64,000 bases of DNA from NCBI RefSeq assembly GCF_006345805.1, contig NC_043000.1:117552001-117616000 (forward strand), in the 5' to 3' direction. This stretch comes from Octopus sinensis (lineage: Eukaryota). Made by a program: the position numbers. Numbering within the stretch: position 1 is the first letter of the stretch; every line of letters starts with the position of its first letter. Of the stretch, positions 4,057-59,000 are shown one piece after another.

Positions 4057-4375
4057 AATATCTGTGAAACCACTACTGCTACCACCACCACCACCACCAG
4101 CTTTGCTGTGGTTTTGGTTGTTCAGATTCGTCTCCACAGACAAGAGCCAGCATCATGGATACCTTCAGTGGTGACAGTTCTTTCCGCGAAATGCAAGATT
4201 CTGGAATAGATGACATATGGGAGATTCTTCAGGATGATTTTTATGAATTAAAAAGTAAAGTTGTTGTCGGAAGGTAAGACTGTTTGTTATTTTTCTTTTA
4301 TTTCTCTCATTCATTTCTCAATACGAAGAACCTATTTTCTTTTATCTCCCACACTACATATTTAATGTATGAATA

Positions 4376-4441
<66 letters not shown>

Positions 4442-5972
4442 ATATATATACAAATAATGTGTGCATATATGAGTGATTATATATATATATATGTGTGTGT
4501 GTGTATATATATACAAATAATGTGTGTATATATGAGTGATTATATATATATATGCGTGATTATATGTATGAGTATATATATATATGATTATATATATTTT
4601 ATGTATACATGATGTGTATATATATATATATGAATGAATATACATGTATATATAAGTATATATGTATATAATATCTTTCATATATATGTGTGTATTTATG
4701 AGTGAATATATATATTTATATATATATATAATGTGTATATATATATGAGTGAATGTATATGTTATATCTATATGGACAACTGACTGATTTATATGTATTT
4801 GTATATATATATTATGCGATTACATTGTATGTATGTATATATATATATATTATAGATATGTATATATTATATATATATGTACATAGGTGTGAGCTGACTC
4901 TCACATAAGCAAATTAGTCCTTACTAAAACATTATGATCTTTCTATGAATCAGTTGGTCTAATAAAACGGTTAATTTATTTTGGTAGCCTTCACCTTCTT
5001 AGTGATTCCGTAGTCAAACAGAATCATCTGTAAGGATGATCGAAAAATTTATTTGTTTTAATAGAACGCAATAAAGGATCGTTGGAATTGATACTACAAA
5101 GATCGAGCGAATAGTGTCATCGATTTAGTTTGGTACGGAATTCTCTACAAATGATTATAGCGGTGGCGGAGCGGAGCGAAAGAGCTTTTTATTGTTAGTT
5201 ATCCATTCCGTCACACTTATTGTTTACGATGATCAGTTTCACTCGTAAATTATATTTAGAAAAAAAAAAAAAACCCTAAAATACATCAGAAGCAAGCCAA
5301 GTGTCGGAATTTATTTGAAATAATAACGATAATTCCTTTAAAAAAAATCATTCGATAATTCCTCTAACCATCTGTTTTCCCTCTATTGTTTAAACCTCGA
5401 TATTGGAAAATCATTCCTATGTTCTTCATATATTCCGACGTATACCAGCAAATCCTAGTTTCTCCCCAATTTATGAATACATATATAACTATATCTGATG
5501 TTGTTTTTCAATATTTATTTCTCATATGTAATATATGTGTTTTTCTTTTCCATTCTAGTCCGTATTATTATTATATTACATACTGCCTATCAATAATATA
5601 TTATTTCCAACCAGCAGGTATTACGTCACTTCCCCGCTACAAAACTGCTGTCTCTTTTCGCACTGACATTTCCCATTCTTAACACCACACAGATTTCAGT
5701 AATGATAAATAATAACGACCACGATTATTATTATTATTATTATTATTATAGTTGTTTATTATTTTTATTCGATATTCTCTTATTCTTTTACACTTTTTTT
5801 TAGTCATTTGACTGCGGCCATGCTGGAGCACCGCCTTAATTATGTTTTTCACTTGGGTTGTCAAGGTGTAAATCATTGCTTATACTCGTGTGTGTTTGTG
5901 AGTGTGTGTAGGCGTATGTGTGTGTATATACTCATATATATATAAGTAAAACAAAGGATAATTCATTCATCC

Positions 5973-6018
<46 letters not shown>

Positions 6019-54349: not shown

Positions 54350-54389
<40 letters not shown>

Positions 54390-55935
54390 TACTATTATGA
54401 TGATGATTCTCTGTAATATTTTGAGGTTTTCAAAAAATATCAAATGGAATGGTAGTGCATAGAGACTCAGTTTTTTATGGCATTGGTTGTGGGCCATATG
54501 GGATCAAACAAAATGGGAATTTAGATTCCTTCATCATCATCATCATCATCATCATCATTGGTTAATGTCCGCTTTCCATGCTAGCATGGGTTGGACAATT
54601 TGACTGAGGACTGGCGAACCAGATGGCTGCACCAGATTCCAATCTGATCGGGCAGAGTTTCTACAGCTGGATGCCCTTCCTAACGCCAACCACTCCAAGA
54701 GTGTAGTATGTGACTTTATGTGCCACAGGCGGTACTGGCAACGGCCCACGCTCAAATGGTGTTTTTTACGTGCCACCTGCACAGGAGCCAGTCCAGTGTC
54801 ACTGGCAATGACCTCGCATGAATGTTTTTTTCATGTGCCTCCATAAAACAAAAAAAATGCAAAAACTAGATAGACTGATACTGCAGTGTGCATGTGAACA
54901 CACACACACAAACAAACAAACACACATTCAATAATGATTTAAGTTGGCTACTTTTCCATTACTTTAAGTTTCATTCTAAAATGGCAATCATTATAGTGTT
55001 TCAACAGAATGAATTTGGTTAGAGGGAAACTGTGTGGTAGCAGATCATTCATATATGTGCATGTGTGTCACTGTAGCTCCACCACACCACTAGAACCTAC
55101 TTTTGGTTTGTTTACATCCCTATTACCTAGCAGTTCATCAAGGGTGACTGATAGAATAACTACCACCAGACGTTTTTAAAAAAATAAGTTGTTGGGCTGA
55201 TTTGTTTGTCTAAAACTCTTCAAGGTGGTGGGTGACCCAGCATGGCCACAATCCAATGACAGAAGCAGTTAAAAGAATAAAAATGGAAGATTTGTTTGCA
55301 ATATAAATCCAGTGACTATAGTGCCATATTGGTCGTTAGTTGGAAAACCTTTGGTTCATTAATTTAAGTAAATGAAATGAACAAATGGATGAGCAGCTTT
55401 TTCATTAAAGAACAGACGCTGTGTAAAATTAAAAACACAAAAGTGAAACAAGAATAGATAAAAAAGTAAATAAATAAAAGGTCTCAAAACCCAGCTCTGC
55501 TGTTAAATTCAACAGTATTGTCCATGTTACAAGCTCTGTCTATTCTCATAGTCATCTTAACTAGTTTTCTTTCCATCATGAACTTCTGACTTCTTCCTCG
55601 CCCACTTCTCTTTCCACAGCTCCTCCCCTTTCGTTTAACTCCACCCACTCAGTGCTATCTGTTGCCTTAATCAAGAGATTTTTCACATTTATGTCCTTCC
55701 AGGTTTTAGTGAATTCTTTTCAATTGGTATAATTAACCCCACACCTAAGCTGTTTCAACACAATAGACTCAGCCAGCAGCACATTATTATTGCTTCTTCC
55801 AGTCTGTCAGCCTTATTTTTTGCCCTGCCCACTCCTAGCTTAAATCTAGTCATTATCTTAATATCATGTAAAAGGCTATATGTTCATATTAAAATTTCAC
55901 TGCCTCATATACATACATACATTCATACACACACA

Positions 55936-56001
<66 letters not shown>

Positions 56002-59000
56002 GGGAAGAGAAAGAGAGTTGTAGATGTATGTGTAAATAAGTGAATAAATATATAAATGGAAAGAAATATAACAAAAACTTTGATTCAGAATAAAATGAGA
56101 GTAGTTTTGTGTCAACCACTAGGAGAACAATAACTTTCAACAGTGGTATCCAGAACAACAAAAAGAGAACTGATATTCTAGTTTTAATCCATACACTACA
56201 TACGTTTGCACCACAAACACATGTTTTATTTGAAGTCTTCCAAATTTGGACCAAAAGTTTCATGTTTATATATATAATATGTATTTAGATGTAACGTGGA
56301 TGTGTATTTTTCCCTCCTAAATAATTCGTTAAGATTTTTGGAAGTTAAAAATTTTAAAAAGTGAGGATTACAACCAATTATGAAAATGAAAAGTTTATGA
56401 TATCTGGATAGAAAAAAAAACAATCAAGCAAAAAAAAAAAAACAGAAGCTGATGGAAAGATTTATTACATCCAAAGGTGGTCTTCCGTTTTCTGGAAGTT
56501 TCCAACAAAATGACTGCTACAAGTTGTTTACACGATCTGTTGCTATATTTTCATCTGAAAGAAAACTTTTTATCTTATGACCAGCAAGCAGTCTTTCAAA
56601 CCCAGGAAATATATGGAGTTAAAAACTATCAGTCTCTATTAAGACAGTGATTGCCAGAAAAAAAAAAAACAGAAAAAAATTAAAATAATAATAAATAAGA
56701 GAAAGAAGGAATAAAATATGACACAAAATCTAAACAGTAGCATCATGATCAAAGAAACCAAAGCAACAACAGCAAAGACTCAGCTTTAATTCTGGAACTT
56801 TAATTCTTCTCAAAACCATTTCATTTTAATTTCCTTTCCTTTATTCTTCAAATCCTCCTGATTCTACTACCTCTATTCCTTTCTGAAACGGATGCTCAAA
56901 GTGTATGTGATAAACCTTAAGGATATCTTTTTCTACCAATTTCTACCAAAGGATATTATTTTCTACCATTCCTTACTCTATTAATCTTCACTCAAGTGGT
57001 ATGATGGTGAACCATAACACTCATGACTATGGTTACAACTACTACTATAACCAACAAGGCTGCCACCACAACTGGCCTTACTCATGTGATTCTAACCAAT
57101 ATGCCTGTTATCCCAGTTGCCAATATGCAACCTGGACAAATGAACCTTTCGTAGGTTTTGCTTACATTTTTTTCTAAAGTTCATTTCTTTTTTCTTTTAT
57201 CTTTTTCTTTGTTTTGCTTTTGTTTCTGTTTTTGTTTTGGTATAGAAACTTTTTTTTTCAAGAAAACTTATTTATTTCATCATAATGTTGTGAATGTTGT
57301 CAGAGAAATTTCTTAAATTTTTCTTCTTATTACTCTGTTCTTTGAATGTTACATAAATTAATTAGTCATTAGATATCTTTAAATTAATTTGTCATCTTTG
57401 GTTTACTTTGGTTTTGTTTCATTTCTTTGAAATCATCCTCCTTCATTTTATCATGCTTAGCTGTAATTACAGAAATACTAATTTCCAACATAGGCACAAG
57501 ACCAAACATTTGAGGGTAGCAGGTTAGTCAGTTATATTGATCACGGTACTTGGCTGGTACTTTATTATGTCAACATCCAGAGAGTTACCATCAACAAGAA
57601 TTGAAATCAAAATGCAAAAACCTGGAATAAATGCTACAAATATTTTATTTTCCACTGCTTTAGCAATTTTCTTAATCCATTGCTCCTTGGAATCAAAGAA
57701 TTAATACATGTTATCAAGTCATCACATTCTTATTTACTTTACTGAAGTAGATTCTAGAAGGCCTTAAACTTCAGATGAAAACTCCAATCATTTCACTGCA
57801 AAAGAATGTAGCATATTCTAAAAAGGGTATCATTTTAAAATGTTTTAGGAGTAATTAAATGGAGTGGAATTTTGGAAATTTAACTAATTATTATTATTAT
57901 TATTGATCACGGGTCCCAGTCTCAGACCGGGCGATGTGTATGTTTATGAGCGAAAACACCTAAGCTCCACGCGGCTCCGGCAGAGGGTAATGGTGAACTT
58001 CTGCTGACTCTTTCGCCACAACTTTCTCTCACTCTTTCCTCCTGCATCTTGCAACTCACCTGCGACGGACCGGCGTCCCATCCAGGTGGGGAACCTATAC
58101 ACCAAGGAGACTGGGAAACTGGCCCTTATGAGCCAGGCGTGGCTCGAGAAGGAACAAACAAAACAATTATTATTATTATTATTATTATTATTTTGCTGTG
58201 TAATATTTAGCTGAAAATATTTTGAGGTTTTCTGAAAAATATTAAATGGAATGGTGGTGCATAGAGACTCAGTTTTTTTTTTTATGGCATTGGTTGTGGG
58301 CCATATGGGATGAAAACAAAATTGGAATTTAGATTCCTTCTGTTTATAAACCCCTTGAGCAAAAACTAGATAGGTTATCAATTGATACTGCACTGTGCAT
58401 GGGAACACACACACATTCAATAATGATTAAAGTTGGCTGCTTTTTTGTTACTTCAAACTTCATTCTAGAATGGTAATCTTCATTATAGTGTTTCAACAGT
58501 CAACAAGTTTCCTTTGTTGGAACACTGCTTCAACAATTGCAGAATACAAGAGAAAAATAAATCCTGGAAACAATAGGAAAATAGGTAACTTTTAACTATA
58601 ATCTAAGACAAAATATTTGCTCTATATGATGTACTGAGTGGTACTTGTTATATCGATCTCAGAGTGATTATAACCCAAACAAACTCCAAGGGTACCTATA
58701 CTCAAAATGTAAAGGGATGTAGCTAAATACCAAAATGCACTTTTTTTTATTTGCTATCACTTTATTGATTATACCATACACTGCTATATTAAAAAAAAAT
58801 TCTAATAATAATAATAATAATCCTTTCAACAATAGGTACAAGGCCTGAACTTTTGGGATGGAGGGATCTAGTTGATTATATTTACACCAGTGTATGACTG
58901 GTACTTATTTATCACCCCCCCCAAAAAAAAAAATGTTGAAAAGCCAAGCTGACTTTGGTAAGATTTAAACTCAAAATGTAATGAGTCAAAAGAAATGACA

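What the first reader, a model, noticed from the sequence alone, without database searches (positions are those of the whole stretch)
4155..57150. Hidden Mitf/TFE-like gene with a possible multi-promoter isoform system paralleling vertebrate MITF
Seen: two homology-supported exons (4155-4273, 41320-41521) plus three ATG-to-donor segments in repeat-poor islands whose phases fit the splice architecture (29122-29159 phase 2 before the shared exon; 49704-49766 and 57001-57150 phase 0 after it). Established: vertebrate MITF uses alternative first exons that splice either to exon 1B1b or, for melanocyte MITF-M, directly to the VQTHLENPT exon. Inference: this locus may make three isoform classes (degron+Rag-binding, Rag-binding only, neither), a possibly convergent design of interest in an animal with chromatophores and an ink gland. 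Any single phase match has a 1-in-3 chance and I selected candidates by eye, so this is a hypothesis.
[Added by the scan's program, not by the reader: the finding's places include an assembly gap (unread letters, written N; its length is only estimated) at 8965 to 9064. Whether the letters on both sides are continuous or in frame is not known: test that first.]
Basis: partly seen in the sequence, partly recalled or inferred. Interest (0 to 1): 0.85.

Follow-up and report, generated by a model that had tools for sequence, protein, structure and literature searches.

The report
Annotated octopus Mitf gene, 5' end
The window holds the first two coding exons of an octopus Mitf/TFE transcription-factor gene that public databases already annotate, and the three proposed extra start exons look no different from chance.

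Summary
Segment 4155-4273 and segment 41320-41521 translate letter for letter into residues 1-107 of a database protein. A source names that protein 'microphthalmia-associated transcription factor isoform X2 [Octopus bimaculoides]'. So the gene is annotated, not hidden.

The N gap at 8965-9064 lies inside the roughly 37-kb intron 1. No reading frame crosses it.

Exon A carries the (D/E)SG(I/V)...YELKS motif. Exon B is the TFEB-type N-terminal region (Pfam PF15951, and TFEB residues 2-74 of PDB entry 7UX2). Both are conserved from corals to gecko TFE3, so this design is ancestral rather than convergent.

The three ATG-to-donor segments exist as written but have no support:
- They are 1 of 7 and 2 of 5 equally qualified right-phase segments in non-repeated DNA, and the opposite strand gives similar numbers.
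- They have no Pfam match, no match to any of 131 Mitf-family proteins, and no database protein sharing words with the 50-residue one.
- All five full-length cephalopod proteins share one N-terminus.

Alternative first exons do appear in other molluscs' gene models, so the general idea remains open. It needs RNA data.

The parts
4155..4273 (+). First coding exon of Mitf (coding part). It encodes MDTF...DSGIDD...FYELKSKVVVG plus 2 nt of a split Ser codon, and is of the exon-1A / TFE3-long type with a degron-like DSG motif at residues 14-16.
   Evidence: 100% match to residues 1-39 of P0003, P0015 and P0016. Motif conservation.
4274..41319 (+). Intron 1, about 37 kb. It contains the assembly gap 8965-9064, so the length is an estimate. 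It is repeat-rich.
   Evidence: GTAAGA donor, ttccag acceptor, N run, tandem and self repeats.
41320..41521 (+). Second coding exon, 202 nt. It starts in a split codon and ends on a codon boundary. It is the exon-1B1b / TFEB N-terminal type region (NRTNLKQQLMKQQ ... VPPQVLQ).
   Evidence: Pfam PF15951, E 1.2e-6, 29.5 bits against a cut-off of 27. 100% match to P0003 residues 41-107. A profile of this exon type matches TFEB residues 2-74 in 7ux2_P, E 1.1e-4.
41522..64000 (+). Start of intron 2, more than 22.5 kb. The next exon (VKTQLEHPTKYHIQ...) is not in the window.
   Evidence: tblastn of P0003 finds nothing beyond residue 108 with E below 1.5. No LENP/ENPT motif in six frames; one search did not search the cephalopod variant LEHPT.
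29122..29159 (+). Unsupported; one of 7 such right-phase donors in the non-repeated part of intron 1.
   Evidence: No protein match. At 12 residues it is too short for Pfam.
49704..49766 (+). Unsupported.
57001..57150 (+). Unsupported.

Best explanation
The window is the 5' part of the single Mitf/TFE gene of an Octopus species, a gene already present in public annotation.

The two exons are real. Exon A (4155-4273) holds the start codon and an N-terminus of the type found in vertebrate MITF-A and long TFE3. It contains a DSG(I) motif at the place where TFE3 has its phosphodegron, followed by FYELKS. After an intron of about 37 kb, which contains the assembly gap, exon B (41320-41521) encodes the region homologous to the TFEB N-terminus and MITF exon 1B1b. 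In mammals that region binds Rag GTPases and brings the factor to lysosomal mTORC1. The next exon lies more than 22.5 kb downstream, outside the window.

Shown here: the exons, their splice sites and phases, their identity to the named protein, and the homology of both motifs across animals. Inferred from homology only: degron function and Rag binding in octopus.

The three further ATG-to-donor segments are most likely chance combinations of a short open frame with a GT site in AT-rich intron. Nothing distinguishes them from their equally qualified neighbours.
For: Exon B alone against 1.84 billion representative proteins gave 12 hits at E<=1e-3. The top hit, P0003 (449 aa), was 100% identical over all 67 residues, at its positions 41-107. 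P0003 is named 'microphthalmia-associated transcription factor isoform X2 [Octopus bimaculoides]' and carries PF15951 (E 2.7e-22) and HLH (E 1.5e-14).

tblastn places P0003 residues 1-39 at 4155-4271 (100%) and residues 39-108 at 41315-41524, and nothing else with E below 1.5. In an alignment of 7 cephalopod proteins, the 5 that are full length at the N-terminus all begin with the same exon A and exon B sequence. The named isoforms X1 and X2 differ by a 34-residue internal insert outside the window.

In an alignment of 14 N-termini, 11 carry (D/E)SG(I/V) followed within 10-50 residues by a YELKS-like motif: 2 cephalopods, 2 other molluscs, an annelid, a nemertean, amphioxus, an acorn worm, 2 corals and a gecko TFE3 (the acorn worm has FYQLIS). 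All 14 carry the R(T/I)xL+QQLM+xQ and VPxxVL+ blocks. A profile of six exon-B-type sequences matches TFEB residues 2-74 in PDB 7ux2/7uxc/7uxh, E 1.1e-4.

Against the candidates:
- Right-phase counts equal those of wrong phases and of the opposite strand.
- tblastn of 131 stored proteins gave 56 hits at E<=0.05: 41 on exon B, 15 on exon A and 0 elsewhere.
- Candidates 2 and 3 have no Pfam match at E<=10.
- No database protein of 89-2000 residues shares three 5-residue words with candidate 3.
- CpG counts around the candidates sit at the 59th, 45th and 20th percentile of the window, against the 90th just upstream of exon A.
Against: No RNA-seq, long-read or 5'-end data and no other cephalopod genome could be consulted, so absence of support is not absence of the exons. 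Alternative first exons are often short, lineage-specific and without homologues, so the negative homology searches are weak evidence.

Gene models of other molluscs do show alternative N-termini joined to the exon-B equivalent, which makes some alternative promoter in octopus plausible.

The protein collection shows one representative per 90% cluster. The call that would have listed cluster members was not available, so an octopus isoform with another N-terminus could be hidden inside a cluster; P0016 stands for 6 sequences. After exon B the right phase has 5 donors against 2 and 2, a small excess that the - strand also shows (4, 1, 2).
Confidence: 0.85

Rival explanations
1. One reading: all or some of the three segments are real alternative first exons. 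They would give a Rag-binding-only isoform (29122-29159 joined to exon B) and isoforms lacking both degron and Rag-binding region (49704-49766 or 57001-57150 joined to the next exon), like vertebrate MITF-M.
For: The ATGs, open frames, GT donors and phases are as stated. All three lie in DNA with no second copy in the window. Vertebrate MITF works this way: every upstream exon except 1M goes through exon 1B1b, and 1M goes straight to exon 2A (PMC6672050, passages read). TFE3 has a degron-less short form from an intronic start site (PMC12852735, passages read).
Against: The candidates are 1 of 7 and 2 of 5 equally good right-phase segments, with similar counts in other phases and on the other strand. 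They have no homologue, no Pfam match and no database protein. Base composition and CpG content are average. All 5 full-length cephalopod N-termini are the exon A type. Candidate 3 has a poor exon end, TTC|GTAGGT.
Confidence: 0.05
2. The octopus gene does use alternative promoters, but with first exons other than the three named. These would be unrecognised ones in the introns, or an upstream exon of the 'MVxT...TVIVVTK...LLRSLL...GRIEKIKII' type seen in other molluscs, lying outside the window.
For: Gene models of abalones, Solemya, Mya, Patella, Physella and Lingula share that second N-terminus in front of the exon-B equivalent. Oyster and scallop models have further short alternative N-termini that diverge exactly at the residue of the split codon: S, R or P before PKVELKH in three scallops. 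Amphioxus models also have two N-termini.
Against: A profile of 8 such N-termini finds nothing in six frames of the window except the start of exon B (E 0.041; next best 9.6). No cephalopod protein with such an N-terminus appeared. A word-based search with the abalone N-terminus returned only 2 abalone proteins, which is weak evidence. These are computed gene models whose transcript support I could not inspect.
Confidence: 0.3
3. Shorter forms arise without any extra exon, by starting translation at an internal ATG. M13 (4191-4193) would keep the DSG motif at the very N-terminus, as in other molluscs. M61 in exon B (41381-41383) would remove the DSG motif and half of the Rag-type helix.
For: Other molluscs' proteins begin M-x-DSGI, and their tblastn matches start at 4191. 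An older model named XP_014775381.1 (P0017, 389 aa) starts at M61. For TFE3, internal initiation at M106 was seen in vitro (PMC12852735, passage read).
Against: The ATG at 4155 has a purine at -3 and G at +4, and MDTF is kept in the second cephalopod lineage, so the long form is probably made. P0017 looks like a truncated model from an older annotation rather than an observed isoform.
Confidence: 0.1

Closest known systems
NCBI-named protein 'microphthalmia-associated transcription factor isoform X2 [Octopus bimaculoides]' (P0003), with its O. vulgaris X2 (P0015) and O. sinensis X1 (P0016) counterparts
   Same: Residues 1-107 are encoded letter for letter by 4155-4273 plus 41320-41521. The three species' proteins are identical over these two exons.
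   Different: None for the two exons. Because the three species are identical here, the window's species cannot be told from these exons. None of these proteins carries any of the three candidate segments.
Vertebrate MITF-A and long TFE3 (exon 1A type N-terminus followed by exon 1B1b)
   Same: Same order of motifs: (D/E)SG(I/V), then FYELKS, then the R..L+QQLM+.Q helix, then VP..VL+ directly before V.T.LE.PT. Exon B, like 1B1b, is not a multiple of three in length, so it cannot be skipped in frame, and it ends on a codon boundary (PMC6672050 passages).
   Different: Octopus has 12 extra residues before the Met that aligns with other molluscs' start. It lacks the acidic-hydrophobic stretch between DSGI and FYELKS, and reads LEHPT instead of LENPT. 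Degron and Rag binding are untested in any mollusc, as far as my searches show (listings only).
Vertebrate MITF multi-promoter system (exons 1A, 1J, 1C, 1MC, 1E, 1H, 1D, 1B, 1M) and TFE3-L/TFE3-S
   Same: Only the shared architecture: a first coding exon joined in a split codon to a common exon, and a codon-boundary junction after it that would allow an M-like bypass.
   Different: No second first exon is shown for octopus. The alternative N-termini seen in other invertebrates all keep the exon-B equivalent. Of the 73 of 129 stored proteins that carry an LExPT motif, none has it within the first 45 residues. That set is biased, because it was collected with a query containing exons A and B.

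Membership tests
MiT/TFE family of bHLH-leucine-zipper transcription factors (MITF, TFEB, TFE3, TFEC; single Mitf in invertebrates) | N-terminal family domain (Pfam PF15951, MITF_TFEB_C_3_N) | tested here: met
   Exon B alone: E 1.2e-6, 29.5 bits against a cut-off of 27, profile positions 1-60 of 152. Whole database protein P0003: E 2.7e-22, profile positions 1-148.
MiT/TFE family of bHLH-leucine-zipper transcription factors (MITF, TFEB, TFE3, TFEC; single Mitf in invertebrates) | bHLH-Zip DNA-binding domain with the family's basic region | tested here: met
   Not in the window. Present in P0003, whose first 107 residues the window encodes: HLH, E 1.5e-14, residues 281-334. That the downstream exons belong to the same gene rests on the database model and on the two unnamed cephalopod sequences held on 2.3-kb contigs.
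Exon-1A / long-TFE3 type N-terminus with phosphodegron | Conserved (D/E)SG(I/V) motif near the N-terminus, followed by [FY]YELKS | tested here: met
   Octopus has D14-S15-G16-I17 and F29-Y30-E31-L32-K33-S34. The (D/E)SG(I/V) motif, with a YELKS-like motif after it, is in 11 of 14 aligned N-termini, including corals and gecko TFE3. 85 of 129 stored proteins have [DES]SG[IV] in the first 60 residues.
Exon-1A / long-TFE3 type N-terminus with phosphodegron | Phosphorylation-dependent recognition by CUL1/beta-TrCP and nutrient-dependent instability | not testable with these tools
   Known for human TFE3 S47 (PMC12852735, passages). For octopus this is inferred from homology only.
Exon-1B1b / TFEB N-terminal Rag-binding region | Sequence homology to the TFEB N-terminus | tested here: met
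   A profile of 6 exon-B-type sequences matches TFEB residues 2-74 (7ux2_P; also 7uxc, 7uxh), E 1.1e-4. The single sequence alone gave no significant PDB match.
Exon-1B1b / TFEB N-terminal Rag-binding region | Binding to Rag GTPases and recruitment to lysosomes | not testable with these tools
   Octopus Rag proteins are not in the window, and no complex prediction was run. The function is stated for mammalian exon 1B1b in PMC6672050 (passages).
Multi-promoter / alternative-first-exon system of the vertebrate MITF kind | Two or more transcripts or protein models from the locus with different N-termini | tested here: not met
   All 5 N-terminally full-length cephalopod proteins out of 7 aligned share one N-terminus; the other 2 are truncated models. 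Cluster members could not be listed.
Multi-promoter / alternative-first-exon system of the vertebrate MITF kind | Candidate first exons stand out from chance, or match known alternative N-termini | tested here: not met
   Phase counts 7/7/7 and 5/2/2 on the + strand against 7/3/4 and 4/1/2 on the - strand. 0 of 56 tblastn hits lie outside exons A and B. A profile of 8 alternative N-termini gave no hit beyond exon B.
Multi-promoter / alternative-first-exon system of the vertebrate MITF kind | Transcription start sites and splice junctions observed in RNA | not testable with these tools

The most novel reading that the evidence does not exclude
One of the two downstream segments (49704-49766 or 57001-57150), or another unrecognised exon in intron 2, is a real first exon that splices straight to the VKTQLEHPT exon. 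That would give an octopus Mitf without degron and without Rag-binding region. It would be an invertebrate counterpart of melanocyte MITF-M, arisen independently in an animal with pigment organs.
Probability: 0.05. Interest if true: 0.6.

Novelty: already known. Interest (0 to 1): 0.12.

Why it matters
As it stands, this is an ordinary, already annotated gene start.

The useful by-product is the comparison across animals. The DSG-motif exon followed by the TFEB-type exon occurs from corals to vertebrates. The nutrient-control N-terminus studied in human TFE3 and MITF-A is therefore probably ancestral to animals with tissues, and octopus has simply kept it.

If an exon-B-skipping isoform were ever shown in a cephalopod, it would be a second, independent invention of the MITF-M trick. 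Nothing here points to one.

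Tried and rejected
- **Motif scan for the next exon.** It found no LENP/ENPT. This was uninformative by itself, because the cephalopod protein reads LEHPT. 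The tblastn settled that the exon is outside the window.
- **First counting script.** It had a slicing error that hid donors at frame ends. It was replaced. Those counts were still dominated by microsatellites (TGTA array at 61119-62451), so one search repeated them on DNA with no second copy in the window.
- **The listing of cluster members on P0003.** Not available, so the members of the 90% clusters, and with them possible further isoforms, stayed unseen.
- **Candidate 3 peptide against longer proteins.** No candidates. This is weak, because only cluster representatives are searched.
- **Abalone alternative N-terminus, residues 1-92.** Only 2 abalone proteins returned, which says nothing about cephalopods.
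- **Candidates 1 and 2.** Candidate 1 (12 residues) is too short for Pfam.
- **Exon A alone in Pfam.** No family match; best was Nup54_C, E 0.056, below its cut-off.
- **Exon B alone against PDB.** Nothing significant. The profile search was needed.
- **CpG and GC profile as a promoter hint.** No island at any candidate.
- **Rfam at gathering thresholds and tRNA scan of the whole window.** 0 matches each.
- **Pfam on nine long stop-to-stop frames in the introns.** 0 families, so no nested gene was recognised.
- **Literature.** Searches listed no paper on cephalopod Mitf isoforms among the titles shown. I read listings only for these. Papers in subscription journals are not covered, and supplements were not consulted.
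- **Steps not run.** The exons were searched one by one, and the whole database protein that a tool returned was used instead. The bacterial and archaeal genome collection was not scanned, because it cannot hold cephalopod DNA. No complex prediction or structure prediction was run.

Full report
**What is in the sequence**

The window is 64,000 nt with 34.5% G+C and a single N run at 8965-9064.

- Exon A (4155-4273). An ATG in a good context (atcATGg) opens a 119-nt segment ending AAG|GTAAGA. It reads MDTFSGDSSFREMQDSGIDDIWEILQDDFYELKSKVVVG plus two bases.
- Exon B (41320-41521). A 202-nt segment follows the acceptor ttccag and ends CAG|GTATGA. Read from its second base it gives 67 residues and ends on a codon boundary. 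The split codon AG|T is Ser.

**The gap**

The N run lies 4.7 kb downstream of the exon A donor and 32 kb upstream of the exon B acceptor.

- The 300 nt on either side are 73% and 54% repeated elsewhere in the window, and short direct repeats flank the gap.
- No exon or candidate exon is near it, and no reading frame has to cross it.
- Continuity across it cannot be shown from the window, so the intron length (37,046 nt) is only an estimate.
- The order 'exon A, then exon B' is supported independently. Protein models of three Octopus species, and two unnamed cephalopod sequences held on contigs of about 2.3 kb, all join the two sequences in the same way.

**What the gene is**

The exons were searched one by one; I made no joined model.

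- Exon B alone passes the Pfam threshold for the MiT/TFE N-terminal domain: PF15951, E 1.2e-6, 29.5 bits against a cut-off of 27, profile positions 1-60 of 152. Exon A alone matches no family.
- Exon B against 1.84 billion representative proteins gave 12 hits at E<=1e-3. The best, P0003 (449 aa), is 100% identical over all 67 residues, at its positions 41-107.
- A source names P0003 'microphthalmia-associated transcription factor isoform X2 [Octopus bimaculoides]'. Near-identical proteins are named for O. vulgaris (X2) and O. sinensis (X1).
- P0003 has PF15951 and an HLH domain.
- tblastn of P0003 on the window places residues 1-39 at 4155-4271 (100%) and residues 39-108 at 41315-41524. Nothing else scores below E 1.5. 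The third coding exon (VKTQLEHPTKYHIQ...) is therefore beyond position 64000, and intron 2 is longer than 22.5 kb.

The gene is already annotated, not hidden. The three species' proteins are identical over both exons, so these exons do not tell which Octopus the window comes from.

**What the two exons correspond to**

In an alignment of 14 N-termini, 11 share (D/E)SG(I/V) followed by a YELKS-like motif. These are octopus, a second cephalopod, a snail, a scallop, a tube worm, a ribbon worm, amphioxus, an acorn worm, two corals and a gecko TFE3 (the acorn worm has FYQLIS). All 14 share the R..L+QQLM+.Q block and the VP..VL+ block directly before V.T.LE.PT.

A profile of six exon-B-type sequences matches TFEB residues 2-74 in PDB entries 7ux2, 7uxc and 7uxh at E 1.1e-4. 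The single sequence was not enough.

From the papers, of which I read passages only:
- Exon 1B1b of MITF carries the residues for RAG GTPase interaction. All upstream first exons go through it, while exon 1M goes directly to exon 2A. Exon 1B1b cannot be skipped in frame (PMC6672050).
- Long TFE3 has an N-terminal phosphodegron around S47, recognised by CUL1/beta-TrCP. Short TFE3, made from an intronic start site, lacks it (PMC12852735).

Because the same two-part N-terminus is present from corals to vertebrates, this part of the design is inherited, not convergent.

Octopus peculiarities:
- 12 residues precede the Met (M13, 4191-4193) that aligns with other molluscs' start.
- The spacer between DSGI and FYELKS is short.
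- The next exon reads LEHPT instead of LENPT.

**The three candidate first exons**

They exist as written, but the test of chance fails.

- Before repeat filtering, open ATG-to-GTA[ATG]G segments of 30-200 nt number 237 pairs in intron 1 (75, 79 and 83 in phases 0, 1 and 2) and 2,080 after exon B. The latter are mostly in a TGTA microsatellite.
- After removing the 44.5% of the window that has another copy in the window, the distinct donors with an open ATG segment are as follows:

| Region | + strand, phases 0/1/2 | - strand, phases 0/1/2 |
|---|---|---|
| Intron 1 | 7 / 7 / 7 | 7 / 3 / 4 |
| After exon B | 5 / 2 / 2 | 4 / 1 / 2 |

The other right-phase donors are at 7478, 13685, 14307, 16501, 24973 and 39131, and at 50499, 50944 and 53087.
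- Being in 'repeat-poor islands' is true, but it holds for 55.5% of the window.
- CpG counts around the candidates are at the 59th, 45th and 20th percentile of the window, against the 90th just upstream of exon A.
- Candidates 2 and 3 match no Pfam family at E<=10. The 87-residue frame around candidate 3 matches none at E<=0.1 and is one of 300 stop-to-stop frames of 60 residues or more in the window.
- tblastn of all 131 stored proteins, which include many alternative N-termini of other animals, gave 56 hits at E<=0.05: 41 on exon B, 15 on exon A and none elsewhere.
- No protein of 89-2000 residues among the representatives of 5.8 billion clusters shares three 5-residue words with candidate 3.
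- Of 7 cephalopod proteins aligned, the 5 that are complete at the N-terminus all begin with exon A. The named isoforms X1 and X2 differ by a 34-residue internal insert that lies outside the window. The 389-residue older model starts at M61 inside exon B.

**What remains open**

Alternative first exons in front of the exon-B equivalent are common in other invertebrates' gene models.

- A conserved 'MVxT...TVIVVTK...LLRSLL...GRIEKIKII' N-terminus occurs in abalones, Solemya, Mya, Patella, Physella and, more loosely, Lingula. No Pfam family covers it in the abalone, Mya and amphioxus models scanned.
- Oysters and scallops have short unrelated N-termini. In three scallops these diverge exactly at the residue that would be the split codon: S, R or P before PKVELKH.
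- A profile of 8 of the conserved N-termini finds nothing in the window beyond the start of exon B (E 0.041; next best 9.6).

Some alternative promoter in octopus is therefore plausible, and I put it at about 0.3. The data give no reason to place it at the three named sites (about 0.05).

No exon-B-skipping form was seen. Of the 73 of 129 stored proteins that carry an LExPT motif, none has it in the first 45 residues. That set is biased towards proteins that contain exons A and B.

**Limits**

- No cephalopod RNA data or second cephalopod genome could be consulted.
- The cluster listing was unavailable.
- The 21-residue candidate 2 and the 12-residue candidate 1 could not be searched in the large protein collection.
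- Literature searches showed no paper on cephalopod Mitf isoforms among the titles listed. I read listings only, and subscription journals and supplements are not covered.

**Verdict**

This is a correct identification of a known gene's first two coding exons, with a speculative isoform scheme that the sequence does not support beyond chance. Nothing in the window was taken for human sequence.

Noticed in passing
window 4130-4154: The sequence gtctccacag|ACAAGAGCCAGCATC directly precedes the ATG at 4155, behind a T-rich stretch. It looks like a splice acceptor 15 nt before the start codon, so exon A may be preceded by a non-coding 5' exon outside or at the start of the window. An in-frame stop lies 29 codons upstream.
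   Followed up: no
window 4155-4193: Cephalopod Mitf has 12 residues (MDTFSGDSSFRE) in front of the Met (M13) that aligns with the initiator Met of other molluscs' M-x-DSGI proteins. MDTF is kept in a second cephalopod lineage.
   Followed up: partly
stored proteins P0022, P0023, P0043, P0049, P0050, P0051, P0075, P0007 (not in the window): A second alternative N-terminus of invertebrate Mitf, conserved across phyla (MVxT...TVIVVTK...LLRSLL...GRIEKIKII), is joined to the exon-B equivalent. No Pfam family covers it in the two of these proteins scanned (P0022, P0050). It has no counterpart in the window, and I saw no description of it in the paper listings.
   Followed up: partly
stored proteins P0016 and P0018 against P0003 and P0019 (outside the window): Isoforms X1 and X2 differ by a 34-residue insert between ...TQLTST and LPQTSV. 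The insert is present in both an octopus and a second cephalopod lineage, so it is probably a conserved cassette exon.
   Followed up: no
window 46457-46876 (+) and 16379-16762 (-): Two long stop-to-stop frames (139 and 127 residues) look, from recalled motifs, like the C-terminal tails of non-LTR retrotransposon proteins lying in introns 2 and 1. Pfam found no family for either.
   Followed up: partly
many places, for example window 946-1224, 13169-13597, 25170-25478, 31122-31376, 53750-54031: A short interspersed element that translates as ...PKVPRSGTEPGTMWLVSKLLTTQP... recurs on both strands next to TA/TG microsatellites. With related elements it accounts for much of the 44.5% of the window that has another copy in it. 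No tRNA or Rfam match.
   Followed up: partly
window 7553-8314, 27142-27508, 29397-29667, 61119-62451: Larger tandem arrays: a 128-nt unit repeated 6 times; two 135/185-nt duplicated SINE-like units, one of them 240 nt downstream of candidate 1; and a 1.3-kb TGTA-type microsatellite that inflates any naive count of ATG-to-GT segments.
   Followed up: yes
window 41381-41383: The internal ATG (M61) in exon B is the start of an older 389-residue model named XP_014775381.1 (P0017). This is probably a truncated prediction rather than an isoform.
   Followed up: partly
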